Below, piece by piece: positions 8,804 to 64,000 of a DNA stretch of 64,000 nucleotides. Numbering within the stretch: position 1 is the stretch's first letter; each line of letters opens with the position of its first letter. This stretch comes from Somniosus microcephalus (lineage: Eukaryota): contig CM126203.1 in NCBI GenBank assembly GCA_052327205.1, positions 313,658,001 to 313,722,000 of the forward strand, given 5' to 3'. The notes beneath the pieces are model-generated. The model made no database searches, was not told the DNA's origin, and worked only from the letters and a program-made list of their open reading frames with translations. A program made the translations under genes and the position numbers.

Positions 8804-9181
8804 ATAAAACTTGGTTCAGCATTCATGTAGGCTTAAGCTGAGCAATTCATCTTGTGGATGCAAAGTGATCAGAATCCTGGTTAAGTGTCAAAAATACCAA
8901 AGGTAAGTAAGCTCATCCAGCGCCATCACATATCAGAAAATGGCTGGTGTTGTGCCTGATATCTTCCGATACGTGTTGGCTGTAAGTGAGATTCTCTTTA
9001 TACAGTTCCTTTGTTTACTTATTTAGCAATGTGGCATTCGGCAAAGTTTGTCTAAGAGGCAAAATTCTACATTTGAATAGTCCACCATCTTAAGACAGAA
9101 CAGATATCTGAGGTCAGCATATGAACTAATATCATATAAATATCGACATGTTAAACTGTTTGGAGTGGGTGGGGTGGGGGG

Positions 9182-9445
9182 TGTTATGTTCATTAATAAA
9201 TAGACATTCTTATTATGAACACAGCTAGCTTTTGCTAGACCTTTTATTGAGCACATGTGGACTAGGTACTATATCTGTGGAGGCTTCCATCTTGACTGTT
9301 GCCTTGTGGGTAGCCTAGCCTCATGGGTAATGTAGTCTTAATATATATATATGGCTGGGTAGTGTAGTCTTATACATACAGCTATATACAGCTCTACGGC
9401 TCCACCTAGTGTCCACTATAGAATGACATGTTATTGATCATTACA
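9182..9445 (-). repeat. 3' LTR of element 1
   Basis: TGTTATG...TTACA on the plus strand, direct repeat of 11497-11760, adjacent to the polypurine tract. Confidence 0.95.
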
Positions 9446-9639
9446 TCCCCCTTTCTTTGAGGTTTAACAAAATCAATATCAATCAACTTTCAAGAAAACA
9501 ATAAAGATAATATCAGTAACACTTTTGTTAGTGCTCTATAAACATAAACATTTTCAAAACAGTCAACACATTTTCAAAGCTTTACATTGTACTCAAAGAT
9601 TAAGTCTATCAGGCTTTTTTACTTCACGTGTGGATCTTC

Positions 9640-11451
9640 TCAACACGGGTGAGTCTGATGTGTCTTCATGAGATTGTTCTGGCGGTGAATGACAAGATGC
9701 AGTTGCAGCATTGTCATCAATTTGGTCTTGAATACATCGGGGTCTCCTTGCGATCTTTGCTTGGAGAGGGTTTCAGTGTTTCCTTCACTCTTCATGCCAT
9801 AACTCTCAATATAGTCAATGCACTCTCGAAAAACTGCTGGCAGCTGGATCCCATCATACAGCATAGTCCTCTCAGCAGCCTCGGCTAATGGAACACCAAA
9901 GATTGGCCTGAGGGAAGAAGGAGTATCCACCGGAACTGTTTCCTGCTCTGGTGCAGGCTTCTTCTTTTTCTTTTTCTCTTTCCACTGCTTAACAACATCT
10001 GCTGCGGTTATATCTTTGGACTTTTTCTCCTTGTGTTTTTCCTCTTTGTGCTTTTCTTCCTTTGGCTTCTCTTTGACCTTAAAGTCTTTTTCTTTCTTCT
10101 TGGAGAAACTAGGCTTTTTGAAGACATGGATACCCTTTGGCCTTTTCATCCTTGATGGGGTCTCTGCTTCATCACCTGAGTCATCTGGTCTGCTTATGGC
10201 ACAGTTTATATGGTAGACTCTCTTGACCAGGTCTAAGTCTTCACAAGCTTTGTCACCTAGTATCGAATCAAGTCTTTCAGCCACAACAGAAAACATGAGA
10301 TGATGCACTTTGTCTTTGACTGTCACTTTAAGTCTGCATACACCTAAGCTATCTATTTTCTGTCCATTATAGTCCTTCAGTAGTACTGACTTTTTCTGTA
10401 TTTTGGGCTTTTCTTTCATATTGTTAATGTCACTCATACTGATTAAGTTTGCTTTTGCCCCAGTGTCAAGTTTCAATGTAACTAATGCTCCATTTATCTG
10501 CAGTGGGATCATCCATTTGTCCTCTTTTACTGCATTAACTTTATGTTCAGCATTGTCTATTTCGGAGGGCTGCACATTTTCTGTATCTTTTTTGATATCG
10601 TCACATGACACCATTCCTACAATAAATGTCTCACTTAAATCAGTGTCCTCAATCACATTAACTCGTTGCCCTTTCGTCGTTTTTACTTTTGAAAAGTATT
10701 GTTTGGCAAAGTGATTCTTTCCATTACATTTTGTGCACATTTTTCCAAACGCTGGGCATTGTCTTAACTGGTGTTTGTAACCACAGCGTTTACAATTAAA
10801 AATTTCATCCTCCGATTGCTTTTCATTTCTGTTCTGCCCATGTTTCTTCCCCTTGTAGGACACAGCACCGACAGCAGCATTATCACTCATTACATTCGCA
10901 TCATTATTGATTTCACTGAAAGTCTTCGCGTGCTTTCGAGCTAGCTCGCTGGCTTGGCATATTTTCACCGCATTTTCCAAATTTAGTTCGGTTTCTCTCA
11001 ACAGACGTTCCCTGACTTTTTTATCATGAATACCAAACACAATCTGGTCACGAATCATGGATGCTTTGAGCTCAGAGAAATTACATGTCTGTGCTTTCAG
11101 TTTCAGATCAGTTATAAAGCTATCAAAAGTCTCATTTTGCTGCTGTGTCTGAGAACAGAAGATGTATCTTTCATAGGTCTCATTCTTTTTGGGAGAGCAA
11201 TGTGCATCAAATTTTTTTAGCACATCTTCTAATTTTTCTCTGTTCTCCACTAGATTAAATACAAATGTATTAAATACCTCTATCACCTGTGGGCCTGTAA
11301 CCGTAAGCAGCAATGCTATCTTCCTTGCATCTGGCTTCGTACCGAATCCGATGGCTGCAATGTAGAGTTCGAATTGTTGTTTAAAAATCCGCCAATTGTA
11401 GTCGACATTTCCCTCGAGATTCAAATGCTCTGGTGGCTTCAAATTCTCCAT
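9640..11451 (-). CDS. Chimeric Gag-aspartic protease-RALBP1 fragment protein (about 603 aa from the ATG at 11451)
   Basis: Gypsy Gag (PPEHLNLEGN, MIRDQIVFGI, CKRCGYKH and CTKCNGKNHFAKQY knuckles), protease LDTGAKANL...ILG, then RALBP1-like segment in frame. The ORF-track start at 11508 lies inside the LTR, so MENLKPP is the likelier start. Confidence 0.88.
   Translation of the reverse strand: MENLKPPEHLNLEGNVDYNWRIFKQQFELYIAAIGFGTKPDARKIALLLTVTGPQVIEVFNTFVFNLVENREKLEDVLKKFDAHCSPKKNETYERYIFCSQTQQQNETFDSFITDLKLKAQTCNFSELKASMIRDQIVFGIHDKKVRERLLRETELNLENAVKICQASELARKHAKTFSEINNDANVMSDNAAVGAVSYKGKKHGQNRNEKQSEDEIFNCKRCGYKHQLRQCPAFGKMCTKCNGKNHFAKQYFSKVKTTKGQRVNVIEDTDLSETFIVGMVSCDDIKKDTENVQPSEIDNAEHKVNAVKEDKWMIPLQINGALVTLKLDTGAKANLISMSDINNMKEKPKIQKKSVLLKDYNGQKIDSLGVCRLKVTVKDKVHHLMFSVVAERLDSILGDKACEDLDLVKRVYHINCAISRPDDSGDEAETPSRMKRPKGIHVFKKPSFSKKKEKDFKVKEKPKEEKHKEEKHKEKKSKDITAADVVKQWKEKKKKKKPAPEQETVPVDTPSSLRPIFGVPLAEAAERTMLYDGIQLPAVFRECIDYIESYGMKSEGNTETLSKQRSQGDPDVFKTKLMTMLQLHLVIHRQNNLMKTHQTHPC
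9781..10182 (-). other. RALBP1: Captured host coding fragment: RALBP1/RLIP76 lysine-rich region plus the start of the RhoGAP domain
   Basis: SGDEAETPSRMKRPKGIHVFKKPSFSKKKEKDFKVKEKPKEEKHKEEKHKEKKSKDITAADVVKQWKEKKKKKKP...PIFGVPLAEAAERTMLYDGIQLPAVFRECIDYIESYGMKSEG closely matches vertebrate RALBP1 as recalled. Confidence 0.93.
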
Positions 11452-11482
11452 GTCGCTTTTCACAATTTTCAGCAGATCTTCA

Positions 11483-11496
11483 CCACCCTGGTACCA
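11483..11496 (-). promoter_or_regulatory. Primer binding site of element 1, tRNA-Leu(TAA)-like
   Basis: TGGTACCAGGGTGG directly after the 5' LTR; complement of the tRNA-Leu(TAA) 3' end is TGGTACCAGGAGTGG (one-base gap). Confidence 0.75.
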
Positions 11497-11760
11497 TATT
11501 ATGTTCATTAATAACTAGACATTTTTATTATGAACACAGCTAGCTTTTGCTAGACCTTTTATTGAGCACATGTGGACTAGGTACTGTATCTGTGGAGGCT
11601 TCCATCTTGACTGTTGCCTTGTGGGTAACCTAGCCTCATGGGTAATGTAGTCTTAATATATATATATGGCTGGGTAGTGTAGTCTTATACATACAGCTAT
11701 ATACAGCTCTACGGCTCCACCTAGTGTCCACTATAGAATGACATGTTATTGATTATTACA
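11497..11760 (-). repeat. 5' LTR of element 1
   Basis: Direct repeat of 9182-9445; inner terminal dinucleotide mutated (plus-strand TA instead of TG). Confidence 0.95.
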
Positions 11761-13514
11761 GGGGGGAGGTGGCACTGTGACTGGGTCAGATTCTATCCAT
11801 ACTCATGCACTTTCTGGGAGGAGTGATTTATGATTGGGAGCACTGTTTCTCCCCCCACTCTAGCATAGGGCACAGAGGTCAATTGTCGTGCCCACCAGGA
11901 TGCCACCCTTCACGGAATCAGCTAACTCACCGTAGGCCGAGGTCAAACCTGCAACCTTCCTGCTCGGTTCGCTCAGTTACACACACAGAAGTACAATTAG
12001 CTACTAAATCATTGAGGATGCTATGAGCCATTATGAGAACATTTTAAAAGAGCCCACTGCTATCTATACTCTGAACTGTTCATAACAAAACTAACAATCC
12101 AGGCACAATTATTTAATAAATACCAGTTATTATTACTATCATGAAATTATTGACCTGCTGTGACAGTAAAACACTTCTGAAATAGATGCTTTCCCGCTCA
12201 TGTGGAACAACAAAGCTGTCTCTCAGTAATCCTGAGTGTACGCCACCAATAAATTAAATACTCCCTTTATTCCAACCACCATGAGGGACACCACATTTAC
12301 CACCACTGATTACTACTGTTGCTTTGCTGGTCTTTGCAGGTGTTGTCAGTCTTTGAACATGTGTGGTAGAGTGAAAAAGTAGGGTTGTGGCACTTTGCAA
12401 AATCCAAATCCAGGCAGGGATGAAATTAGGGAGGGGCCCAAGGCTTGGCTTTTGAAGTTTGTTTTACTGATGATGAAATTTCATTAAAAACCTTAATAAC
12501 TAATGTATCCACACTATCAGACCGTGAAGTGGAAAACAGAATACAATTTTATTTAAAAATCCAGATATTTTTGTGTGCATTTTACATTTTAAAATTTTTG
12601 TGGACAACCATCTCAAAACCAGATGGGTGACAACCCAGTTAAAGAGGAAGGGAGAAAAGGAAGAAAGTTGTGAATTAGAAAGAAGCAAACAAGGAAGGTG
12701 TGGCTGAAGTTCTGAGATGAGCTGCTTGTACTCAATGAGTGCGGCTGAGTGCAGTCGGCTGTCAGGAATACTTGTTGGGAACACCCTGATTGTCCTCCTT
12801 CCCAGAGTGAGACTGTAATTCTAGATATAACCCAACATCATGAGAACAAAGTGACAGACTGAATGGGGCCACACCTCTACAGTACCCTAAAGAAAATGGG
12901 AGACTCTTAAATCTTGTATTGTTATTGTTTGTGACATAAAAACAGTACTGCTGTCTTCAAAGGATTAAAGGGTTAACCACGAGATTAATGTTTAAATGCA
13001 GAATGTCCTCACAGTGCTCGAGTTACACTGGCCACTGCAGAACATCAACCCTAAGTGCCACTACAGCCCTACCGGCCTTTGTCCAAACAGGTGTCAACTT
13101 TCCCTTAAAAGCATCCTTCTTTAAAAAGACACAGTTATCAGGTGACTCCGAGCAGGGGCCCGTCCCCTTCCATTAGGCATGCTCAGTGACCTGCATGAAT
13201 GTCAAACAATAGCCAGATGTCACTGATAGTTAAACCGGTGACTGGTTTAATTCCAGCAGCCCAACGGCTGGGATCACAATGCTGCTCGGCGTCACAAAAC
13301 TGGCAAAATGCTGATGCCTTCAAAAAAAAAAGAACTGAGTAGAACAGTGCAAAGGGCTATCAGCGAGCCAGCACATCACACACTGGCTAACTGACTGACA
13401 ACAGTATGGAGGTTTTGCAAAAAGCAAGCCATTAAAACATAAACCATCCAAGGTCATTTCTTCCCAGTGCTGATTAACTATTTTCAGTGGAGCAATGCAA
13501 AAACATTTTTTATA

Positions 13515-20338: not shown

Positions 20339-20595
20339 TGTTAAATCTGTGAGTTGTTCAAGTAATTAATACTCAGACTTAATCAGTAACAATAAAACAG
20401 GTCTTTACTGGTTGGAGGTAGGGACTATACGTAGGTCTTTACTTCATGCCCACAGGTGGGAACTGAGGGGAGATCAGTACCCACAGTACTATTTATACCC
20501 CTGTGGCCAGGAGTGGTACTGCGTATCACTACGCCCAACAAGTAGTGCAGTCCTGTCCATAGGTTCAAAGTAGCACACATATTACATACACAACA
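20339..20595 (-). repeat. 3' LTR of element 2
   Basis: Direct repeat of 23689-23945; minus strand has GGGGTATAAATA (TATA-like) and AGTAAA (polyA-signal-like). Confidence 0.97.
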
Positions 20596-20911
20596 TTCCT
20601 CCCTTCCTAGCTTTACAGTCATCTCCCCATTTAACATAACGTAATAACATATATACATATATAACTTCAGGTTTACATAACAGAATAACATAGATACATA
20701 GATAACTTCATGTCAAAACAGATCACAGATTCAGTCTCTGCGGAAAACAGTTCACAGATTCAATCTCTGTGGTGGAGTCGGTTTACGTTGCTGGAGTGAC
20801 TCATTCAATAGTCCTTCCATGGATTTAACAGTTTGAACTTCCGAACTGAATTGGCTCCGTTCGGAGGGACCACGTGTGTGATCTGGTAGAGGTGATAATG
20901 GTTCAGATGGG

Positions 20912-21180
20912 TCATCTTCTGTTTTTACTTTTCCTTTTCTGCTTCTTGGAGACTCTCTGGGCTCCATTGTCAGCTGCCACAGCTGCCAGCTGCATGCGCA
21001 GTTCCTCCTTCTCTTCCTCCTGTTTCCGTCGTAGAGCCAGCTTCTCCCGATGTTCCGTAGACTTTTGGTGCTCCTCCATGATTTCTGCACTTTGGGAGTC
21101 GAAGTTACAAGCTGGGCAGGACAGGACATCGTAATATTCGGTGTCGTCCACCAGGTCATAGTAATATTCGGTGTCGTCCT
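20912..21180 (-). other. DNAJC21: Captured host fragment: DNAJC21-like C2H2 zinc finger with acidic lead-in and basic tail
   Basis: [46 protein letters not shown]...[12 protein letters not shown] vs recalled [46 protein letters not shown]...QKLSKKQKKKKQK. Confidence 0.75.
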
Positions 21181-23143
21181 GAGCTAGACCAGTGAGAGGG
21201 TCGTCTATTTCCTCCATACCCAGCTGGACGTTAGCCAGCTCTTGTTCCAAATCCAGACATCTTTCCTGAAGAGACTTCTTCATGTGTACCTCTGCATCCA
21301 GCTTTTTCTGGGCTTTCAGCAAGTCGTTTACTAGTGACCTCATTTGTGATTTTAATACTTCAACTTCCTTTGGAGATTGATTGATCGGACTATGCAATCC
21401 CTCTACCGGAGCAGCTGTTTCAGCGGTCTGTTGTTCTACGTTGACGTGAGTCAGCGTACTTTTGGCATCCAAGGGCTGCTCTGTTGCAGTCATCTCAGTC
21501 TGTGTTGCCACCTCAGCTCTTCCAATAACCTTTGAGAGCTCCGAACCCCTTTCGTTTGAATATTGAAGTTCGTGTTCAAGTTTTTCCCATTTCAGAGTCC
21601 TGTCCTTCAGCATATGCAGGAGTTGGCTGACCGTTAACTCCTCTGACATCAGACGTTTTGTGTGCTCCTGTTCCATTTTCTCCATCAGCTGCTTCTGTTG
21701 TCTTTCCAGATTCTCCAACTCTATGTCAAAGAACTCTTTCGTTGCATTCAACTCTTGCTCACAACGGCGAAGCATTTGTTCTAATTGCTGTTGTAGTTTG
21801 AAATGGAGTTGAGTTCGAGCCCGGTGTCCCTCAGAAATGGGCACATCAGTAGACTTGCCAGACTCAGAATCCACAGTTAAACTATGTTGTTGTTGCTCAG
21901 TGGAATTCTGTGCTGAAACTTTGTCTTTTGCACCTGAGTTGGGCTTACCATCATCCGTTCCAGAGTCTGGGCCGACTATCTTCACCGAGTTCTCACTCGT
22001 TATTGTTTGTAGGAAATGCCAGTCCATATTCATTTTCCTAATCCACTCCCGTCCTAGTAGTGGAGGACCTCCTTCAGATATCACATATAAGTCCATTATT
22101 TGACTGTCTTCGCCCTTGTGGACCACTGCAACCTCTATTTTCCCGATGGGGTACACTCTTTGCCCCGTGTATGTTTCCAATATAATCCCCGTATCCTGTA
22201 GGGGAATATGTTGGAATAACTTTCCGTAATCTTTCTTATTTATGACCGTCAATGCCGATCCAGTGTCCAATTCCAGTTTTACTTGGACTCCTTCTATCTG
22301 AAGAGTGACCCAAATTGTCTGGAGGTCTGCACCCTTACCAGCGTTGAGTACTCTTAAGCTAGCCAGTTCATTACTGCTAGCGTCTGAATCGGAGTCCTGT
22401 TCGGTCACCTTGTGTACCTTTGCGTATTTTCCTTGCGGTGACTTCTTGTTGCTGGTCTTCTTCGCTGACCTGCATACTCTAGCTATATGTCCAAGCCTAC
22501 CACAAGTTCTACATTCTTGGTTTTTAAACCAACACTGGTTCTGATCATGCGTTGTCTTTCCACAACGATAACATTTGCCAGAACTCACACCCAATTTGTG
22601 TGCACTGAGCTCCGGTGACCGTAGCTGCATTACTGCCGTGCCTCTCGCTGCGGCTTCGTGTGCTGCTGCCATAGTGACCGCCTTCTCAAGCGTCAGCTCA
22701 TTCTCCGCGAGCAGTCGCTTTTGTGTATCCTGTTTAAATAAACCACACACAAATTTGTCTCGAAGTGCCTCTGTCAGTCCCGTTCCAAACTGGCAATATT
22801 TCGCTAATTTACGCAATTCCAGCAAATAATCAGCATTGCTTTCATGCTGTAGCTGCCTTCTGTCGTAAAATTTAAATCGTTCCGCTAGCATCAGCGGCGT
22901 GGGGTTTAGATGATCTTTCAGGACAGTAACAATCTCATCGAACGTCTTATCCGCCGGTTCATCTGGTGATAACAGGTGTTTCAATTGCCCGTATGTCTTC
23001 GCACCCATTAAATTTAATAATGTTAGAGCTTTATCTTGGTCACGAATTTTATTGGCCTTACAATAATTTTTTACTCTTTCAACATATATGGCCCAATCTT
23101 CGAGGTCACTATCAAAGGTGCTAATATTCCCATGTTTAGGCAT
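20912..23143 (-). CDS. Chimeric Gag-protease-STK10/OPTN/DNAJC21 fragment polyprotein (743 aa from the ATG at 23143)
   Basis: Gag ([30 protein letters not shown], two CCHC knuckles), protease LDTGSALT...LLGREW, then about 360 aa of non-Gypsy sequence with no stop. The ORF-track start at 23263 is a GTG. Confidence 0.92.
21220..21646 (-). other. OPTN: Captured host fragment: optineurin central coiled coil
   Basis: [14 protein letters not shown]...EKLE...RAEVATQTE...[41 protein letters not shown] vs recalled [14 protein letters not shown]...ERLE...RSEIETQTE...[41 protein letters not shown]. Confidence 0.85.
21650..21832 (-). other. STK10: Captured host fragment: STK10 (LOK)/SLK PKK coiled coil
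   Basis: [57 protein letters not shown] vs recalled STK10 [57 protein letters not shown]; paralog SLK not excluded. Confidence 0.82.
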
Positions 23144-23677
23144 TGTAGATTTGCAATTTCTCAGATTTTTTTTTTTTACTGCTATCCAAGATGGCGGCTT
23201 CCCGCTCTTGCCGTCGTCCTCCGCCCACAAAATGGCGGTTTTCCCGCGCTTGGCGGTCTTCACCCGTCCCCCAACGCCGTCTCCCTTCAGCCCCCGAGTG
23301 CGGCCCTTATCTTCGCCGCGATCGCCCGAGTGCGGCCCTTATCAGCGGATGCGATCGCTGGATCGCGAAGCGGCTCTTATCAGGAGATGCGATTGCTCCG
23401 TTGAAACGCCTCCCGCTCGAAGCGGCTCTCGCGCCCTATTCCTCCAGCTCCCCCAGCCCCGTTCGTGCGGCCAACGCGGTCGACTGCCTGTCGCGTCGCT
23501 GCCCGGCTCAGACAACGGCTTACCCACCACCAAGCTGGAGAAGAAGCTGACGGTCGCCGATGGAGGCTCCGAGGTCAGGATGTCTTCCAGTGGGGTGGAG
23601 AGGGTGGAAACCTCTCTGCAACGTCCTGGCTGTGGACGAAGCTGCCGTGGAGTGACTGCCGCAGGGTCCGAATCAGA

Positions 23678-23687
23678 CTCGTCGCCA
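23678..23687 (-). promoter_or_regulatory. Primer binding site of element 2, tRNA-Ser(GCT)-like
   Basis: TGGCGACGAG one base after the 5' LTR, complementary to ...CTCGTCGCCA. Confidence 0.8.
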
Positions 23688-23688
23688 G

Positions 23689-23945
23689 TGTTAAATCTGT
23701 GAGTTGTTCAAGTAATTAATACTCAGACTTAATCAGTAACAATAAAACAGGTCTTTACTGGTTGGAGGTAGGGACTATACGTAGGTCTTTACTTCATGCC
23801 CACAGGCGGGAACTGAGGGGAGATCAGTACCCACAGTACTATTTATACCCCTATGGCCAGGAGTGGTACTGCGTATCACTACGCCCAACAAGTAGTGCAG
23901 TCCTGTCCATAGGTTCAAAGTAGCACACATATTACATACACAACA
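23689..23945 (-). repeat. 5' LTR of element 2
   Basis: Direct repeat of 20339-20595. Confidence 0.97.
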
Positions 23946-56977: not shown

Positions 56978-59900
56978 TGTCTTGTTTTGCACACTTCGTA
57001 CAAAAATAATAAATTGCAGGACAACGGAGTATTACAGTTCAAACTCTTTTATGAAGCATCAGGTCTGTGATGTTTCTCATACAGCACCGTGTGGCCAAGA
57101 TGGAGTTAGGCCCCTGGGTCTTCCAAAACAATAGTAGTCCTTACAGATGCCTGCAGGCCAATGACAACTCAGCATGTGATCACATGTGAATATAATAGGT
57201 ATTCCTTACAGATGCCTGCGGGCCAATGATAATTCAATATGCAAATGTTACATCCCCTTTCTTTTAAAAGAAAAATGTTATGCATTACTTTTGAACCTTT
57301 CTTCTACATAATGTTCTCAGTAGCATCAACATATAAGTAAACTCAACATTTAACTAGCACTGAAAACATCTCAACGTTTCAATAACGATGTACAGTTTTT
57401 TTTTAGGGCAGCGATCCACCTACACCCTTTGACAGTTCACAAGTCAAGGATAACTCTAGGCTTGACCTCTCGTCCTGACCTTGTGTGGTATGGAACTGAG
57501 CATGCTCCTGAATCGGTCAACAAATCAGGTTCAGGTTTAGGTTCAGGTAAGTATGATGTGTTTTGTGTATTGCTCTGTTCATCACACTCTGTTGAACTGA
57601 TCCTCTCGTCGGAATGACGGTGTTGTTCCTTGGTGTTCAGGAGGTGCCTGCGATTGCGGCGGTACACCTGTCCTTCTGGGGTGCGGACGTGATACGATCA
57701 CTCAGTGTCAGCTGGCTGGATGGCGACTGCTGGCTTCCAGTAGTCATGCTCCTGGATTCTGATGGATTCTCCATTGTGCAGCGACGGCAGTAGTCTAGCT
57801 GACCTGTCATAGTATCTCTTTTGGTGTTGCTGTCTCTGTACATGTTTTGCATGCACTTGCTTGCAGCCGATGACCTCTGCCTGCAGCTGCTGGTTGGTGC
57901 TTGAGCGAAGTCTGCGGCTCATCAACAGCTGTGCTGGTGACTTGAAGTTGTCAACCAGAGTGTTGCGGTACTCAAGGCGACTGATGTAGGGGCCTCTTTT
58001 GTCCGCTTTGGCTTTGTCCATGAGTGTTTTTGCAATCTGGACAGTTTTTTCAGCAAGGCCATTACTTTGAGGGTAATGTGGGCTTGATGTGACATGTGTG
58101 AAATCCCATGCCTTGGCAAACGACTCGAACTCTTTTGATTTGTATTGGGGGCCATTGTCTGAGACTAAAGTCTCTACCATGCCATGCCTGGCAAAGGCTG
58201 CCTTTAGCTTGTGGATCACAGCTGCAAATGTGGTGCTGTGAAGCTTGTCCAGTTCAAAAAATCTGCTGTAGTAATCAACAGTCACTATGTAGTCCTCGTT
58301 GTTCCATGTGAACAGATCCGTTGCTACGACCTGCCAGGGCCTGTCTGGGATACGGTGAGGTATCATGGGCTCTTTGACATTTGATGGGTGGCGTTCTAGA
58401 CAAATGGAACATTTTCCGACAATGTCCTCAATGTCTTTGCACATTCCAGGCCAAAACATAATGTCACGTGCTCTTTGTTTGCATTTTTCCATGCCCATAT
58501 GTCCAGCATGAATTTTTGTCAACATCTCTTCTCTGAGACTGGTAGGAATGATGATTTTCTCCCCTTTGAAGACAAGTCTGTTGATTTGTGACAGTTTGTC
58601 TCTGTGGTTCCAGAATTCAGATATGCTCTGAGGGCATTTCCTCCTTTCCTCAGGCCATCCTTCATGTATGACTTTGCTCAGCAGTGTGAGTTGTGCATCT
58701 TTCTCTGTTTCCGATCAGATCGCCTTCAGTTTTGAGTCACTCACAGGTAAGCTGTTGTACTCCATGAGCACCTGCACATCCATGCCTTCACTGAGGCTGC
58801 TGTCCTGGTAGCTAAGAGACTTTCTGGCGAGCGTGTCTGCGACAGGAATGTCTTTGCCTGGATGGTGAATGATTGTGAAGTCGTACTTCTGTAGCTGAAG
58901 GATCATTCTCTGTAGCCTTGGTGGGGCTGCGGCTAGTGGTTTCCTCATGATTGACTCGAGGGGCTTGTGGTCGGATTCCACAATGACTTGTCAGCCATAG
59001 ACGTACTGGTGGAAATGCTTACATCCAAACAGAATTGCATATAGCTCTTTCTCGATTTGAGCATAGTTGATTTCACTGTCTGTGAGAGATCTGGAAGCGT
59101 AGCCGATGGGCTTTCCTTCTTGCAATAATACTGCGCCTAGTCCATACTTTGACGCGTCCACTTGTAGTCTGAGCTCTTTGTTGGGGTTGAAGTAGGCAAG
59201 AACTGGTCCTGGTTCTCTGGTGATTAGGTCTTTCATTTTCTGAAATGCTGTGTCATGTTGTTTGTCCCACAGGAACTCATTGGATCATTTGAGCAACTGA
59301 CACATGGGTGCGTTGATTTCGGAGAGGCTCGGGGCAAACTTGGCTAAGTAGTTAACCATGCCTAGTACTGTCTCTAGCTCTGCGCGGTTCTTCGGCCACT
59401 CCATCTTCTTGATGGCGGAGATTTCCTCTGGATCCGGCTTAATGCCATCAGTTGAGAATCGATGCCTGAAATAACTGATCTCGGTGGATCCGATTATGCT
59501 TTTCTCGGGGTTGAGCCGGATACCTTTCTCCCGTGATCTTTGTAGCATCGCACAGAAGTTCCTGTCATGTTCCTCTCTAATCCTGCCATAGATGAGGATG
59601 TCGTCTACAATTGCGACTACTCCGTCCAGGCCTTCATAGGTTTCGTCGATCTTCCGCTGGAATTCATCCTGAGCTGAGATAAGACCAAATGGTAAACGCA
59701 GAAATCGGTAGCATCCAAATGGTGTGTTGAACGTTAGCTTAGATGACTCTTCCGTGAGCTTGATAGTCCAGTATCCTGATCGTGCGTCCATTACACTGAA
59801 GTAACGTGCTCCCACTAGCTTGGGTGTGATGTCATCTAGCGTTGGTAGAGGGTAGTGAGGGCGTTTGATAGCCTTGTTCAAATCTCTGGGGTCGAGACAG

Positions 59901-61699
59901 ACTCTGAGCTTGCCTGTACGTGGTTTCTCAACCAATACTAATGCGTTGACCCACTCTGTCGGTTCTGTTTCCCGGACGATGATTTCTGTATTCTCCATGC
60001 TCTGCAGCTCCTCCTTCAGGCGACTACGTAGAGCAAGGGGTATCCTTCTCGGTGGGCAAACCACAGGGGTTGCTGCTGGGTCAAGGTGAATAGTGCATTC
60101 ACCTGGGAATAGTCTGATTCATTTGAAAACATCAGCAAACTCCTCCATGACTGTCTGCTTCTCAACTGGTGCTGTCAATGATAGCACTAGCTCTACGAGG
60201 TCCATGTCTAAACATGCCTTTAGACCTAGCACTGGAGGTGCTCGAGTGTCAACAATGTAAAAGTCCAACATCATGTCGCTTTCTTTGTACTTGCATTTCA
60301 TCACGCATTGCCTTTTACAATGAGCTGCTCACCCCCATAGCCGGTCAGTCTGTGTGAGGTGGGCTGTAGCTCACACTCATCCTTCAAGCTGTGATACTCA
60401 CTCAGAGGAATTACGTTAACCTGAGATCCAGTGTCTAGTTTAAACTTAAGCTCTTTGCCCTGTTTTCCTATCTCAATATCGGCATAGGCTTGCTCAGTCT
60501 CTGAAATCTGTTTTTTCTGTGACACAGAATCAATAAACAGTTCCTCTGCATTTGGCTCTCTATCTGGCATTTGGCTGTCACTCACTGTGTGTACTGTTTT
60601 TCCAAAAGCAGTCCTGCAGACTTTAGCAAAGTGGTTCCGTTTACCACATTTAGTACATTGCCTTCCTTTGGCAGGGCAGTACTCCTTTTCTCCATGCCAG
60701 TTGTTTCCACAATATCCACAGTTTTTGAAGTGTTTTATGTCTGTGTCGCCCATTTTTAGAACTCTCTCTCTTTCTGTTCTGAAACACGTTTTCTGGGCGG
60801 TGTTCTTTGGTGTGTGTCTATTAACTGCGTGCACTGTCTGTTCACTCGAACTGTTCGTGGCGCCGGTTATGGTTTTCAACTGTGCTTGGGCTATCTCATG
60901 CGATCTAGCTATGTCCATAGCTTTGTCCACCTTTAGCCCGGACCCAACATTCAAAAGTTTCTCTCTCACTTTAGCTGAATGTATTCCAAACATGATGCGG
61001 TCTCTGACCATCTCATCTTTATCGGCATATTCAAAGTCTTTTACCAGTAGTTTTAACTCATTCACGAACTGTTCAAACGACTCACTAGCTCCTTGTACTT
61101 TCTCCTGAATCTTGTACCTAGCAAATATCGTATTTGTCTTGGGCATCACATATGCTTCAAAACGGTCAAAATAACTTTTCAGTACCTTTGCTTCGTCCGC
61201 GGTGAGAGACCATGTGTTAAAAATGTCTCTCCCTTTTTCTCAGATCCATAGGAGTAGGTAGCTGCATCTTTCTTCCTCCCCTTTGTTTTTCAACGGGCCC
61301 GAGAACATTAACTCCACGTGCTGCTTCAACTTGCACCATTCTCTATGTAAGTTCAAAGATTCCCAATTCATTCGAGGTAAGGGAGCTCCAACGATGTCCA
61401 TTTCAAATCCCTGTTCTGACAACATGTCTTGTTTTGCACACTTTGTACAAAAATAATAAATTGCAGGACAACGGAGTATTACAGTTTAAACTCTTTTATG
61501 AAGCATCAGGTCTGTGATGTTTCTCATACAGCACCGTGTGGCCAAGATGGAGTTAGGACCCTGGGTCTTCCAAAACAATAGTAGTCCTTACAGATGCCTG
61601 CAGGCCAATGACAACTCAGCATGTGATCACATGTGAATATAATAGGTATTCCTTACAGATGCCTGCGGGCCAATGATAATTCAATATGCAAATGTTACA
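56978..61699 (-). mobile_element. Full-length Ty3/Gypsy LTR retrotransposon (element 3), inactivated
   Basis: 275-bp LTRs 56978-57252 and 61425-61699 (3 mismatches), TSD CAGAG, PPT 57253-57265, PBS TGTTGTCAGAA (tRNA-Leu(CAA)-like, 1 mismatch). Confidence 0.97.
57437..61403 (-). pseudogene. Gypsy gag-pol (Gag, CCHC, PR, RT, RNaseH, IN) with six in-frame TGA stops and one frameshift
   Basis: LDTGSQVN; LRVCLDPRDLN, RLPFGL, IVDDIL; VDASKYGLG, YAQIEKE, SDHKPL; HAGHMG, ATDLF, SDNGPQ, GLAEK; ends TRSGREVKPRVILDL. Confidence 0.95.
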
Positions 61700-62489: not shown

Positions 62490-62700
62490 CTGGTTCCTAA
62501 GCTCTGGAATTCCCTACCAAAACCTCTCCGCATCTCTATCTCCCGCTCCTCCTTAAAACCTACCTCTTTGAGCAAGCTTTTGGTCACCTGTCCTAATCTC
62601 TCCTTATGAGTCACATTTTGTTTGATAATCGCTCCTGCGAAGCGCCTTGGGACACTGTACAAAGTTAAAGGTGCTAGATGAGGGAAGTTGTTGTTGTACT
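62490..62700 (+). mobile_element. L2 LINE 3' tail
   Basis: CCTAAGCTCTGGAATTCCCTACCAAAACCTCTCC...GAAGCGCCTTGGGAC...(TTG)n. Confidence 0.7.
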
Positions 62701-62802
62701 AAGGATATGCTCCTGCCCTCTTTCACACAGTCAAGAAGAAAATCCTCCCCTGAGTTTCAGCAGGTTATTCACCCCTCGGGGAGCATCAGGACCAAACGTG
62801 AT

Positions 62803-64000
62803 CCTGCCACCCAGCTCCTGCCACCAACTCCTGCCACTCAGCTCCTGCCACCCAGCTCCTGCCACCCAGCTCCTGCCACTTAATTCTTGCCACCTAGTTC
62901 CTGCCACCCAGCTCCTGCCACTTAATTCTTGCCACCTAGTTCCTGCCACCTAGCTCCTACCACCCAGCTCCTGCCACCTAGCTCCTACCACCCAGCTCCT
63001 GCCACCTAGCTCCTGCCACCCAGCTCCTGCCGCCTAGCTCCTACCACTCAGCTCCTGCCACCCAGTTCCTGCCACCTAGCTCCTACCACCCAGCTCCTGC
63101 CACCTAGCTCCTACCACCCAGCTCCTGCCACCCAGCTCCTACCACCTAGCTCCTGCCGCCTAGCTCCTACCACCTAGCTCCTGCCGCCTAGCTCCTACCA
63201 CCTAGCTCCTACCACCCAGCTCCTACCACCCAGCTCCTACCACCTAGCTCCTGCCGCCTAGCTCCTGCCACCCAGCTCCTGCCGCCTAGCTCCTACCACC
63301 CAGCTCCTGCCACCTAGCTCCTACCACCCAGCTCCTACCACCCAGCTCCTGCCACCTAGCTCCTGCCGCCTAGCTCCTACCACCCAGCTCCTACCACCTA
63401 GCTCCTACCACCTAGCTCCTACCACCCAGCTCCTGCCGCCTAGCTCCTACCACCCAGCTCCTACCACCCAGCTCCTGCCACCTAGCTCCTACCACCCAGC
63501 TCCTGCCGCCTAGCTCCTACCACCCAGCTCCTACCACCCAGCTCCTGCCACCTAGCTCCTACCACCCAGCTCCTGCCACCTAGCTCCTACCACCCAGCTC
63601 CTACCACCCAGCTCCTGCCACCTAGCTCCTACCACCCAGCTCCTGCCGCCTAGCTCCTACCACCCAGCTCCTGCCACCCAGCTCCTGCCACCCAGCTCCT
63701 ACCACCCAGCTCCTGCCACCCAGCTCCTGCCACCCAGCTCCTACCACCCAGCTCCTGCCACCTAGTTCCTGCCACCCAGCTCCTGCCACCCAGCTCCTGC
63801 CACCCAGCTCCTGCCACCTAGCTCCTACCACCCAGCTCCTGCCACCTAGCTCCTGCCACCTAGCTCCTACCACCCAGCTCCTGCCGCCTAGCTCCTACCA
63901 CCCAGCTCCTGCCACCCAGCTCCTGCCACCCAGCTCCTGCCACCTAGCTCCTGCCACCTAGCTCCTACCACCCAGCTCCTGCCACCCAGCTCCTGCCACC
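62803..64000. repeat. 14-bp minisatellite, consensus GCTCCTRCCRCCYA, running off the window end
   Basis: About 85 tandem units read directly. Confidence 0.95.

What the first reader, a model, noticed from the sequence alone, without database searches (positions are those of the whole stretch)
9182..11760. LTR element with Gag-PR fused to a RALBP1 fragment truncated just before the RhoGAP arginine finger
Seen: right after the protease end (DLVKRVYHIN), about 134 codons of RALBP1-like sequence follow in frame and stop at YGMKSEG. Known: RALBP1 continues GMKCEG-IYRVSG, where R is the catalytic arginine finger, so the cargo lacks GAP activity and the Ral-binding domain but keeps the lysine-rich N-terminal region. 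Inference: the high similarity suggests a more recent capture than in element 2. The basic segment might act as an NLS, an RNA/membrane-binding module or a trafficking adaptor. This copy shows slight decay (second knuckle C>Y, mutated LTR terminus).
Basis: partly seen in the sequence, partly recalled or inferred. Interest (0 to 1): 0.88.

Follow-up and report, generated by a model that had tools for sequence, protein, structure and literature searches.

The report
Shark retrotransposon carrying RALBP1 mRNA pieces
A jumping gene in a shark-like genome swapped its copying enzymes for two pieces of the host RALBP1 messenger RNA and still spread to about 2,800 places; the way it captured the pieces is known, the scale is unusual, and we found no sign that the captured piece does a job.

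Summary
9182-11760 (minus strand) is a Ty3/Gypsy derivative: LTR, PBS, one 603-codon Gag-protease-RALBP1 frame, integrase tail, PPT, LTR. It is one of about 2,800 copies; the pol-bearing parent has about 6,300. It joins the first at a 7-nt microhomology, and that joint is what ends the frame three codons before the arginine finger. The junctions fit template switching onto RALBP1 mRNA, followed by spread in trans (Tan 2016). The break looks accidental: most of the GAP domain is missing anyway, and a second LTR family carries the same exon with the finger. No selection on the RALBP1 peptide was detected (p=1.0 and p=0.10; low power). The family is transcribed, but hardly from this copy's allele. 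Other Gypsy families here also carry host fragments (7,876 hits for a PKK piece). Known mechanism, at a scale far above the published cases I read (1-9 copies).

The parts
11761..11765 (.). target-site duplication (G run), 5' side of the element
   Evidence: 5 bp in 8 of 9 other copies with both ends found, of 40 tried
11497..11760 (-). 5' LTR, 264 bp, ends AATA in this copy
11487..11496 (-). primer-binding site, 10 nt complementary to the 3' end (with CCA) of host tRNA-Leu(UAA)
10181..11451 (-). Gag (two zinc knuckles) and aspartyl protease, residues 1 to about 423 of one frame
   Evidence: 89-96% nucleotide identity to 30 of 30 RT-bearing parent loci
9782..10180 (-). RALBP1 piece 1: inner part of coding exon 2 (host residues 93-230, less one 5-residue repeat), in frame; its 5' junction lies on microhomology CTCAG
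9782..9788 (-). 7-nt microhomology GTGAAGG, shared by exon 2 and the last exon, that joins the two pieces
   Evidence: junction pattern 2,830 hits, control 0
9734..9788 (-). RALBP1 piece 2: last 55 coding nt of the last exon, read out of frame
9459..9733 (-). tail of the parent's integrase frame (read out of frame; stop at 9640-9642) and 3' untranslated stretch
9446..9458 (-). polypurine tract
9182..9445 (-). 3' LTR, 264 bp
9177..9181 (.). target-site duplication (G run), 3' side of the element

Best explanation
This is one copy of a non-autonomous Ty3/Gypsy family founded by a single reverse-transcription accident. Copying an element RNA, the reverse transcriptase switched template three times in a particle that also held RALBP1 mRNA, joining the integrase tail to the end of the last exon, the last exon to exon 2 (GTGAAGG), and exon 2 to the end of the protease (CTCAG). 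RT, RNase H and most of the integrase were replaced. The product kept all cis signals (LTRs, PBS, PPT), so the autonomous parent copied it in trans to about 2,800 sites, with repeated recombination in gag between the two RNAs. Intact copies would make a Gag-PR-RALBP1 polyprotein, but the RALBP1 peptide is most likely a passenger, and where it ends was set by the microhomology. SHOWN: anatomy, parent, junctions, copy numbers, one shared set of breakpoints, mixed gag tree, family RNA. INFERRED: the template-switch steps, copackaging, trans mobilisation, translation, passenger status.
For: Both pieces with the same breakpoints in 42 of 42 family loci and 96 of 99 copies taken in positional order. 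The pieces lie 38.5 kb apart in the gene but 1.2 kb apart in the mRNA; no intron or poly(A) sequence lies in the cargo, and cargo matches join element sequence directly, with no duplicated target. Microhomologies of 5, 7 and 2 nt; chance of at least that length at a random joint is 0.005, 0.0004 and 0.16. The parent has gag-PR-RT-RH in 20 of 20 loci and all five domains in order in 14 of 20; cargo copies have RT and RH in 0 of 40. Cargo and parent copies interleave in the gag tree (at least 4 forced changes) but separate in the tree of the protease region next to the cargo (1 change, support 83/86). Only 1 of 3 junctions is in frame, as chance predicts. RALBP1 variants shared by 4 or more copies have N:S 10:3, against 155:43 for singletons, p=1.0. 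Only 14 of 90 copies keep the frame. The mechanism, partial capture and re-amplification are described in PMC5131818.
Against: The selection tests are weak because the family is star-like. After filtering for linked variants the RALBP1 piece gives N:S 2:3 against 144:46 (p=0.10). No stop or frameshift marks a replicated lineage (0 of 12 recurrent ones; 0 of 15 against 110 of 875, p=0.14). Both lean towards a kept reading frame. Neither piece crosses a normal exon-exon junction, so the mRNA origin rests on distance and microhomology. In one RNA run cargo-type reads outnumber parent-type reads at the junctions (about 239 against 76-92) although cargo copies are about a third of the family, which may mean an advantage. 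A second Gypsy family in the window also has host sequence in frame behind its protease.
Confidence: 0.65

Rival explanations
1. Same origin, but the fusion helps the element. The basic RALBP1 peptide takes RT's place in the polyprotein, may be released by the protease (the residues after the protease are the parent's own), and aids RNA binding, membrane or nuclear targeting or particle assembly; or the open frame alone protects the RNA from decay and favours packaging in cis.
For: The in-frame state is the family norm. The piece has pI 9.4, with 29 K+R in a 68-residue stretch, and covers the polybasic region proposed for membrane contact in PMC8124665. Linked variants lean synonymous (2:3), and no replicated lineage carries a break. 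Cargo RNA is over-represented in run X23. Other families here have long Gag-PR-host frames.
Against: The frequency test is neutral (p=1.0). The purifying signal in gag and protease comes mostly from variants that parents also carry. The one family-specific substitution and the 15-nt loss cannot show selection. Further copies lose all the EEKHK repeats (14 of 18 loci). In run X24 cargo-type reads (163) do not clearly exceed parent-type ones (134 and 197). No protein evidence.
Confidence: 0.22
2. The cargo was taken second-hand from an older element or retrocopy that already carried a longer RALBP1 mRNA, rather than from the host mRNA directly. This concerns origin only and does not exclude the best explanation's account of spread.
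For: Four of the five fixed differences from today's host exon are shared, base for base, with the second LTR family (8 of 8 copies). Mosaic elements with several host pieces exist in this genome.
Against: At one of the four sites five outgroup proteins agree with the elements, so the host changed there. None of the 8 second-family copies carries the last exon, and all that cover the site lack 45 nt that this family mostly keeps. The last-exon piece has no fixed difference from the host.
Confidence: 0.2
3. This locus is a domesticated gene (a host-used dominant-negative or GAP-dead RALBP1 fused to a capsid).
For: This copy keeps a 603-codon frame, which only 14 of 90 sampled copies do.
Against: It has ordinary private changes, including in a knuckle, and LTRs 2.3% apart. 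At sites where it differs from the family almost no RNA read carries its base (3 of 253 in X23 and 7 of 133 in X24 at 10160; 0 of 184 and 0 of 170 at 9811).
Confidence: 0.02
4. A RALBP1 processed fragment was inserted later, by a LINE, into one dead copy.
For: None.
Against: 2,825 and 2,830 junction hits with controls at 0; pol is replaced, not interrupted; no poly(A) or duplication at the cargo.
Confidence: 0.01

Closest known systems
LTR-mediated retrocopies in animals (Tan et al. 2016, PMC5131818; section 5 and passages read)
   Same: Partial mRNA replaces part of the internal ORFs; microsimilarity at the switch points (median 6 bp there; 5, 7 and 2 nt here); more than two switches; both LTRs kept; re-amplification as a non-autonomous element; sense co-transcription.
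   Different: There: single or few insertion sites, and 1 to 8 LTR-type cases per vertebrate or mosquito genome. Here: one capture grew to about 2,800 copies, roughly a third of its family, in frame behind an intact Gag-protease.
Maize Bs1 (as described in PMC5131818 passages; the primary papers were not read)
   Same: LTR element with joined partial exonic pieces; all copies share the switch points.
   Different: Bs1 has 1-5 copies and pieces of three genes and is suggested to be functional; here thousands of copies, two pieces of one gene, no selection shown.
Crocodilian ERVs CrocERV29 (KIT ligand) and CrocERV31 (nectin3) (PMC4299795; passages read)
   Same: A vertebrate LTR lineage that replicated with a captured host mRNA, in one case at the cost of a viral gene.
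   Different: Those are retroviruses with whole-ORF cargo, 9 and 6 copies, under purifying selection; here a Gypsy element, a fragment without its catalytic domain, fused to Gag-PR, neutral so far as tested.
Replication-defective gag-onc transducing retroviruses (recalled; passages state only that capture usually deletes viral domains)
   Same: Host coding sequence replaces pol, in frame with gag, and a helper supplies the enzymes.
   Different: No env, no infectious stage shown, no active catalytic domain, germ-line copies.
Fish Ty3/Gypsy 'K02A2.6-like' single-ORF polyproteins (e.g. P0122)
   Same: Gag-PR 68% identical; the parent's RT is 85-87% identical.
   Different: RT, RNase H and the integrase core are gone in this derivative.

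Membership tests
Ty3/Gypsy LTR retrotransposon (non-autonomous derivative) | Paired LTRs with TG...CA ends and a short target-site duplication | tested here: met
   264-bp pair, G-run duplication; 5 bp in 8 of 9 other copies. This copy's 5' LTR ends TA, and a GA end is common in the family.
Ty3/Gypsy LTR retrotransposon (non-autonomous derivative) | tRNA primer-binding site and polypurine tract | tested here: met
   10-nt match to host tRNA-Leu(UAA) genes; purine tract at 9446-9458.
Ty3/Gypsy LTR retrotransposon (non-autonomous derivative) | Domain order PR-RT-RH-IN in the autonomous parent | tested here: met
   14 of 20 parent loci show all five domains in order; the other 6 had no hit at the integrase core.
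Autonomous Ty3/Gypsy element | Own RT, RNase H and integrase | tested here: not met
   RT and RH in 0 of 40, integrase core in 1 of 40 cargo loci.
LTR-mediated retrocopy (Tan 2016) | Partial mRNA replaces part of the internal ORF instead of interrupting it | tested here: met
   Parent sequence ends at the protease-RT boundary and resumes in the integrase tail.
LTR-mediated retrocopy (Tan 2016) | Microsimilarity at the switch points; no poly(A) or own target duplication | tested here: met
   5, 7 and 2 nt; the 2-nt joint alone is within chance.
LTR-mediated retrocopy (Tan 2016) | Loss of introns | tested here: inconclusive
   Each piece lies inside one exon; they are joined across 38.5 kb but not at a splice site. 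The second family does cross exon junctions.
LTR-mediated retrocopy (Tan 2016) | Secondary retroposition and co-transcription with the element | tested here: met
   2,825 and 2,830 junction hits; RNA reads over the whole element including the cargo, mostly in one direction in X23.
RhoGAP / RALBP1 protein | Arginine finger, nine-helix GAP fold, Ral-binding coil | tested here: not met
   Finger codon covered in 0 of 99 copies; no Pfam hit for the cargo; PF20924 has one match in the genome, the host gene.
Functional captured gene (Bs1 or CrocERV type) | Purifying selection on the captured frame | tested here: inconclusive
   p=1.0 by frequency, p=0.10 by linkage; few informative variants.
Functional captured gene (Bs1 or CrocERV type) | Protein is made | not testable with these tools
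   No ribosome profiling or proteomics available.

The most novel reading that the evidence does not exclude
In this cartilaginous fish, Gypsy elements routinely replace pol with in-frame host mRNA fragments and succeed because of it: a 'Pack-Gypsy' system in which Gag-protease-host fusions (RALBP1, about 2,800 copies; a PKK coiled coil, about 7,900; PKK plus immunoglobulin domains) and cargo-swapping LTR mosaics are translated, favoured in replication, and flood the genome with transcribed host-exon copies that may act back on the host genes through small RNAs.
Probability: 0.2. Interest if true: 0.78.

Novelty: new variant of a known kind. Interest (0 to 1): 0.5.

Why it matters
LTR-mediated capture in animals is described mostly from single or few-copy cases. 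Here one capture, its parent, its donor gene and thousands of daughters lie in one genome, so one can test directly whether captured fragments help an element spread or merely ride along. At least two further families in the same genome carry host fragments, so this route may contribute to genome growth, exon shuffling and false gene models in sharks. About 2,800 transcribed copies 98% identical to a single-copy gene also confound RALBP1 read mapping and could tie the gene to transposon silencing (inference).

Tried and rejected
(1) That the break at ...MKSEG is an exon boundary: rejected; the exon runs 17 nt further and holds the finger. (2) That the family copy about 24 kb upstream of the host's first coding exon (C7:32357715-32361072, same strand) is the founder: it has the standard cargo plus a later LINE-like insert; with one copy per 2.3 Mb, a neighbour within 50 kb either side has about a 4% chance; not pursued. 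(3) That purifying selection in the cargo family's protease shows use in cis: the raw signal (8:12 against 187:49, p=0.0003; 3:4, p=0.04, for variants not seen in 30 parents) vanished after linkage filtering (1:1, p=0.38); most of it is parent-shared. (4) That frame-broken copies were sources: 0 of 12 recurrent breaks marked a lineage. (5) The pattern as a count of the second family: 14 of 18 fetched hits were this family with a longer repeat loss, so 8 copies is only a floor. (6) A fused Gag-RALBP1 protein in public protein sets: none among the 120 of 353 hits shown. (7) No RNA holder was listed in the index; raw runs under the same species label were laid instead. (8) The host PKK gene was not found; the best hit, L233, looks intronless and does not match element 2. 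(9) Earlier scan notes: nothing. (10) Literature: searches listed no paper on RALBP1 capture or on high-copy Gag-host fusions in sharks; only the top 10-20 titles of each were seen, and term look-ups in 10.1101/2025.06.08.657570, 10.64898/2026.06.26.734816 and PMC5753468 gave nothing on it. Repbase and Dfam could not be searched and may hold this family. No structure prediction was run; ages in years were not estimated, as no rate is known here.

Full report
Setting. The window lies on contig C2 of a 6.45-Gb assembly. The best named relatives of the cargo are skate, sawfish and shark RALBP1 at 85-89%, so the host is taken to be a cartilaginous fish (inference).

Anatomy. The element spans 9182-11760 on the minus strand between G runs. 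Its LTRs are 264 bp and differ at 6 sites. The PBS matches 10 nt of the 3' end of host tRNA-Leu(UAA) genes, and a purine tract precedes the 3' LTR. One frame of 603 codons (11451-9640) holds Gag with two knuckles, a protease, the RALBP1 piece and a 47-residue tail. Gag-PR is 68% identical to a fish Gypsy polyprotein that continues into RT, RNase H and integrase.

Donor gene. The Ral-binding domain has one match in the genome. Nine coding exons on C7 give a 659-residue RALBP1. The cargo is two pieces: mRNA 321-734, inside coding exon 2, less one 15-nt repeat; and mRNA 1969-2023, the end of the last exon, 38.5 kb away. They overlap by GTGAAGG. Exon 2 runs 17 nt beyond the break and holds the finger arginine, residue 233, so the break is not a splice site. 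Human Arg232 is the finger, the GAP domain spans residues 192-368 and also needs Lys268 (PMC8124665, passages). The cargo holds about 40 GAP residues and would be inactive with or without the arginine (inference).

Parent and junctions. A search with a related RT found 150 top matches. All 30 loci fetched share gag-PR with the element at 89-96% up to the joint, where parent and mRNA share CTCAG in the parent variant with that base. The element returns to the parent's integrase tail at a 2-nt overlap beside the RALBP1 stop codon. Chance of overlaps this long is 0.005, 0.0004 and 0.16. One of the three joints is in frame.

Scale. With up to one mismatch, the protease-RALBP1 joint has 2,825 matches, the inner joint 2,830 and the parent's protease-RT joint 6,325; reversed controls have 0. 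Of 46 loci, 42 belong to the family and all 42 have both pieces; 96 of 99 copies taken in positional order on C1 do too, and 3 are cut short. Repeat pairs were found in 46 of 52 cargo loci, median mismatch 1.6% (three of these pairs were flanking repeats, not LTRs), and in 8 of 20 parents, median 2.0%. Copies differ from each other by 1.9% in the cargo and from the host by 2.3%. Five substitutions separate nearly all copies from the host; four are shared with a second family and one of these is host-side by outgroups, leaving one substitution and the 15-nt loss as family-specific. Capture was thus followed quickly by a burst (inference).

Spread in trans. In a gag tree of 35 cargo and 27 parent copies the two labels need 5 changes, at least 4 forced by supported branches. 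In the tree of the protease region, next to the cargo, 39 cargo copies fall on one side of one branch, with moderate support (83/86). Of 98 sites variable among cargo copies, 63 vary among parents too. This fits one origin and repeated recombination with copackaged parent RNA. The parents were chosen by RT score and are not a random sample.

Selection. Of 99 positional copies 90 cover the frame and 14 keep it through the cargo. Among 129 copies, RALBP1 variants in 4 or more copies have N:S 10:3 against 155:43 for singletons (non-CpG; p=1.0). Restricting to variants that mark linked groups gives 2:3 against 144:46 (p=0.10). Gag and protease show a purifying signal (p=0.03 and 0.002) that is lost when variants seen in parents are removed. 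None of 12 recurrent stops or frameshifts marks a lineage, but this is not significant (0 of 15 against 110 of 875; p=0.14). The data neither show nor exclude a kept frame; they give no significant support for a useful peptide.

Expression. Four of 24 listed runs were laid. In RNA run X23 the cargo has depth 110-294 in the direction expected for the element's sense strand and 4-36 in the other; strandedness of the library is not on record. About 239 reads cover the cargo side of the 3' joint against 92 parent-type loose ends. In X24 both directions are similar, with 163 against 134. Loose ends at LTR borders are mixed (agreement 0.41-0.5), so read-through from many loci or DNA contributes. Host mRNA may add reads; host-type loose ends were not among the rows shown, and 221 rows were hidden. 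Reads rarely carry this copy's own bases (3 of 253 at 10160 in X23), though the animals differ from the assembled one. Run X21, under another organism label, has a 505-nt contig across both cargo joints; X1 holds only host RALBP1.

Other captures. Eight loci of a second LTR family (about 500-bp LTRs, no gag seen) carry RALBP1 exon 2 through the finger codon, most with spliced exon 1 and some with exon 3, followed by varying host pieces: phosphoglycerate kinase, VWA and a weak LDL-receptor class A hit. Element 2 of the window has a PKK coiled-coil piece in frame behind its protease, with 7,876 pattern matches; a relative adds immunoglobulin domains. That the same exon is carried with its finger argues against avoidance of the finger.

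Comparison. PMC5131818 (section 5 and passages) describes the same structure, switch-point microsimilarity and secondary spread, and gives Bs1 1-5 copies. PMC4299795 (passages) reports captured mRNAs in 9 and 6 ERV copies, under purifying selection. PMC3597677 (passages) finds host fragments in Repbase consensus sequences, with selection in 9 of 24 testable cases, so capture into a family is not new. Supplements were not read and may list fish LTR cases. My searches showed no shark case and none at this scale.

Verdict. Real and well resolved. What remains unusual is the scale and the recurrence of Gag-protease-host fusions in one vertebrate genome. New variant of a known kind; interest 0.5.

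Noticed in passing
window 20339-23945 (-): Element 2: a different Gypsy family, LTRs 99% alike, with Gag-protease in frame with a PKK (SLK/STK10-type, names recalled) coiled-coil piece and further unexplained sequence; 7,876 pattern matches in the genome.
   Followed up: partly
L234 562-1929 (-) (G000:C1:144.31 Mb) and L235-L244: Relatives of element 2 (gag-PR about 77% identical); L234 has a longer PKK piece followed in frame by I-set immunoglobulin domains; many PKK hits lie in open frames above 1,000 codons.
   Followed up: partly
L046-L049, L215, L223, L224, L230: Second LTR family without a visible gag, carrying spliced RALBP1 and interchangeable host pieces (PGK, VWA, LDL-receptor class A by Pfam; Tudor-, DCUN1D-, UBR7- and PRPF6-like pieces by recall only). 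The cargo differs between copies, like Pack-MULEs.
   Followed up: partly
family LTR 3' ends, L112-L151: A non-canonical GA end is inherited in both LTRs of 10 or more of 40 copies, beside the usual CA.
   Followed up: partly
G000:C7:32331025-32331486 (host RALBP1 exon 2): The host differs from both families at four sites, one changing an isoleucine kept in five outgroups; about as many changes as a neutral copy has gained. Could be old polymorphism, a shared intermediate, or host escape from small-RNA cross-silencing.
   Followed up: partly
G000:C7:32357715-32361072: A family copy with a LINE-like insert lies about 24 kb upstream of the host RALBP1 first coding exon, on the same strand.
   Followed up: partly
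window 56978-61699 (-): A third Gypsy element with gag, protease, RT and integrase in broken frames and LTRs 99% alike.
   Followed up: no
G000:C4:0.7-1.9 Mb: A large cluster of tRNA-Leu(UAA) genes, paired with tRNA-Ser(AGA) in the two loci checked.
   Followed up: no
L233 (G000:C3:354.66 Mb): An apparently intronless PKK-domain C-terminus next to LINE sequence, probably a retrocopy.
   Followed up: no
window 62700-64000: A 14-bp tandem array of more than 70 units.
   Followed up: no
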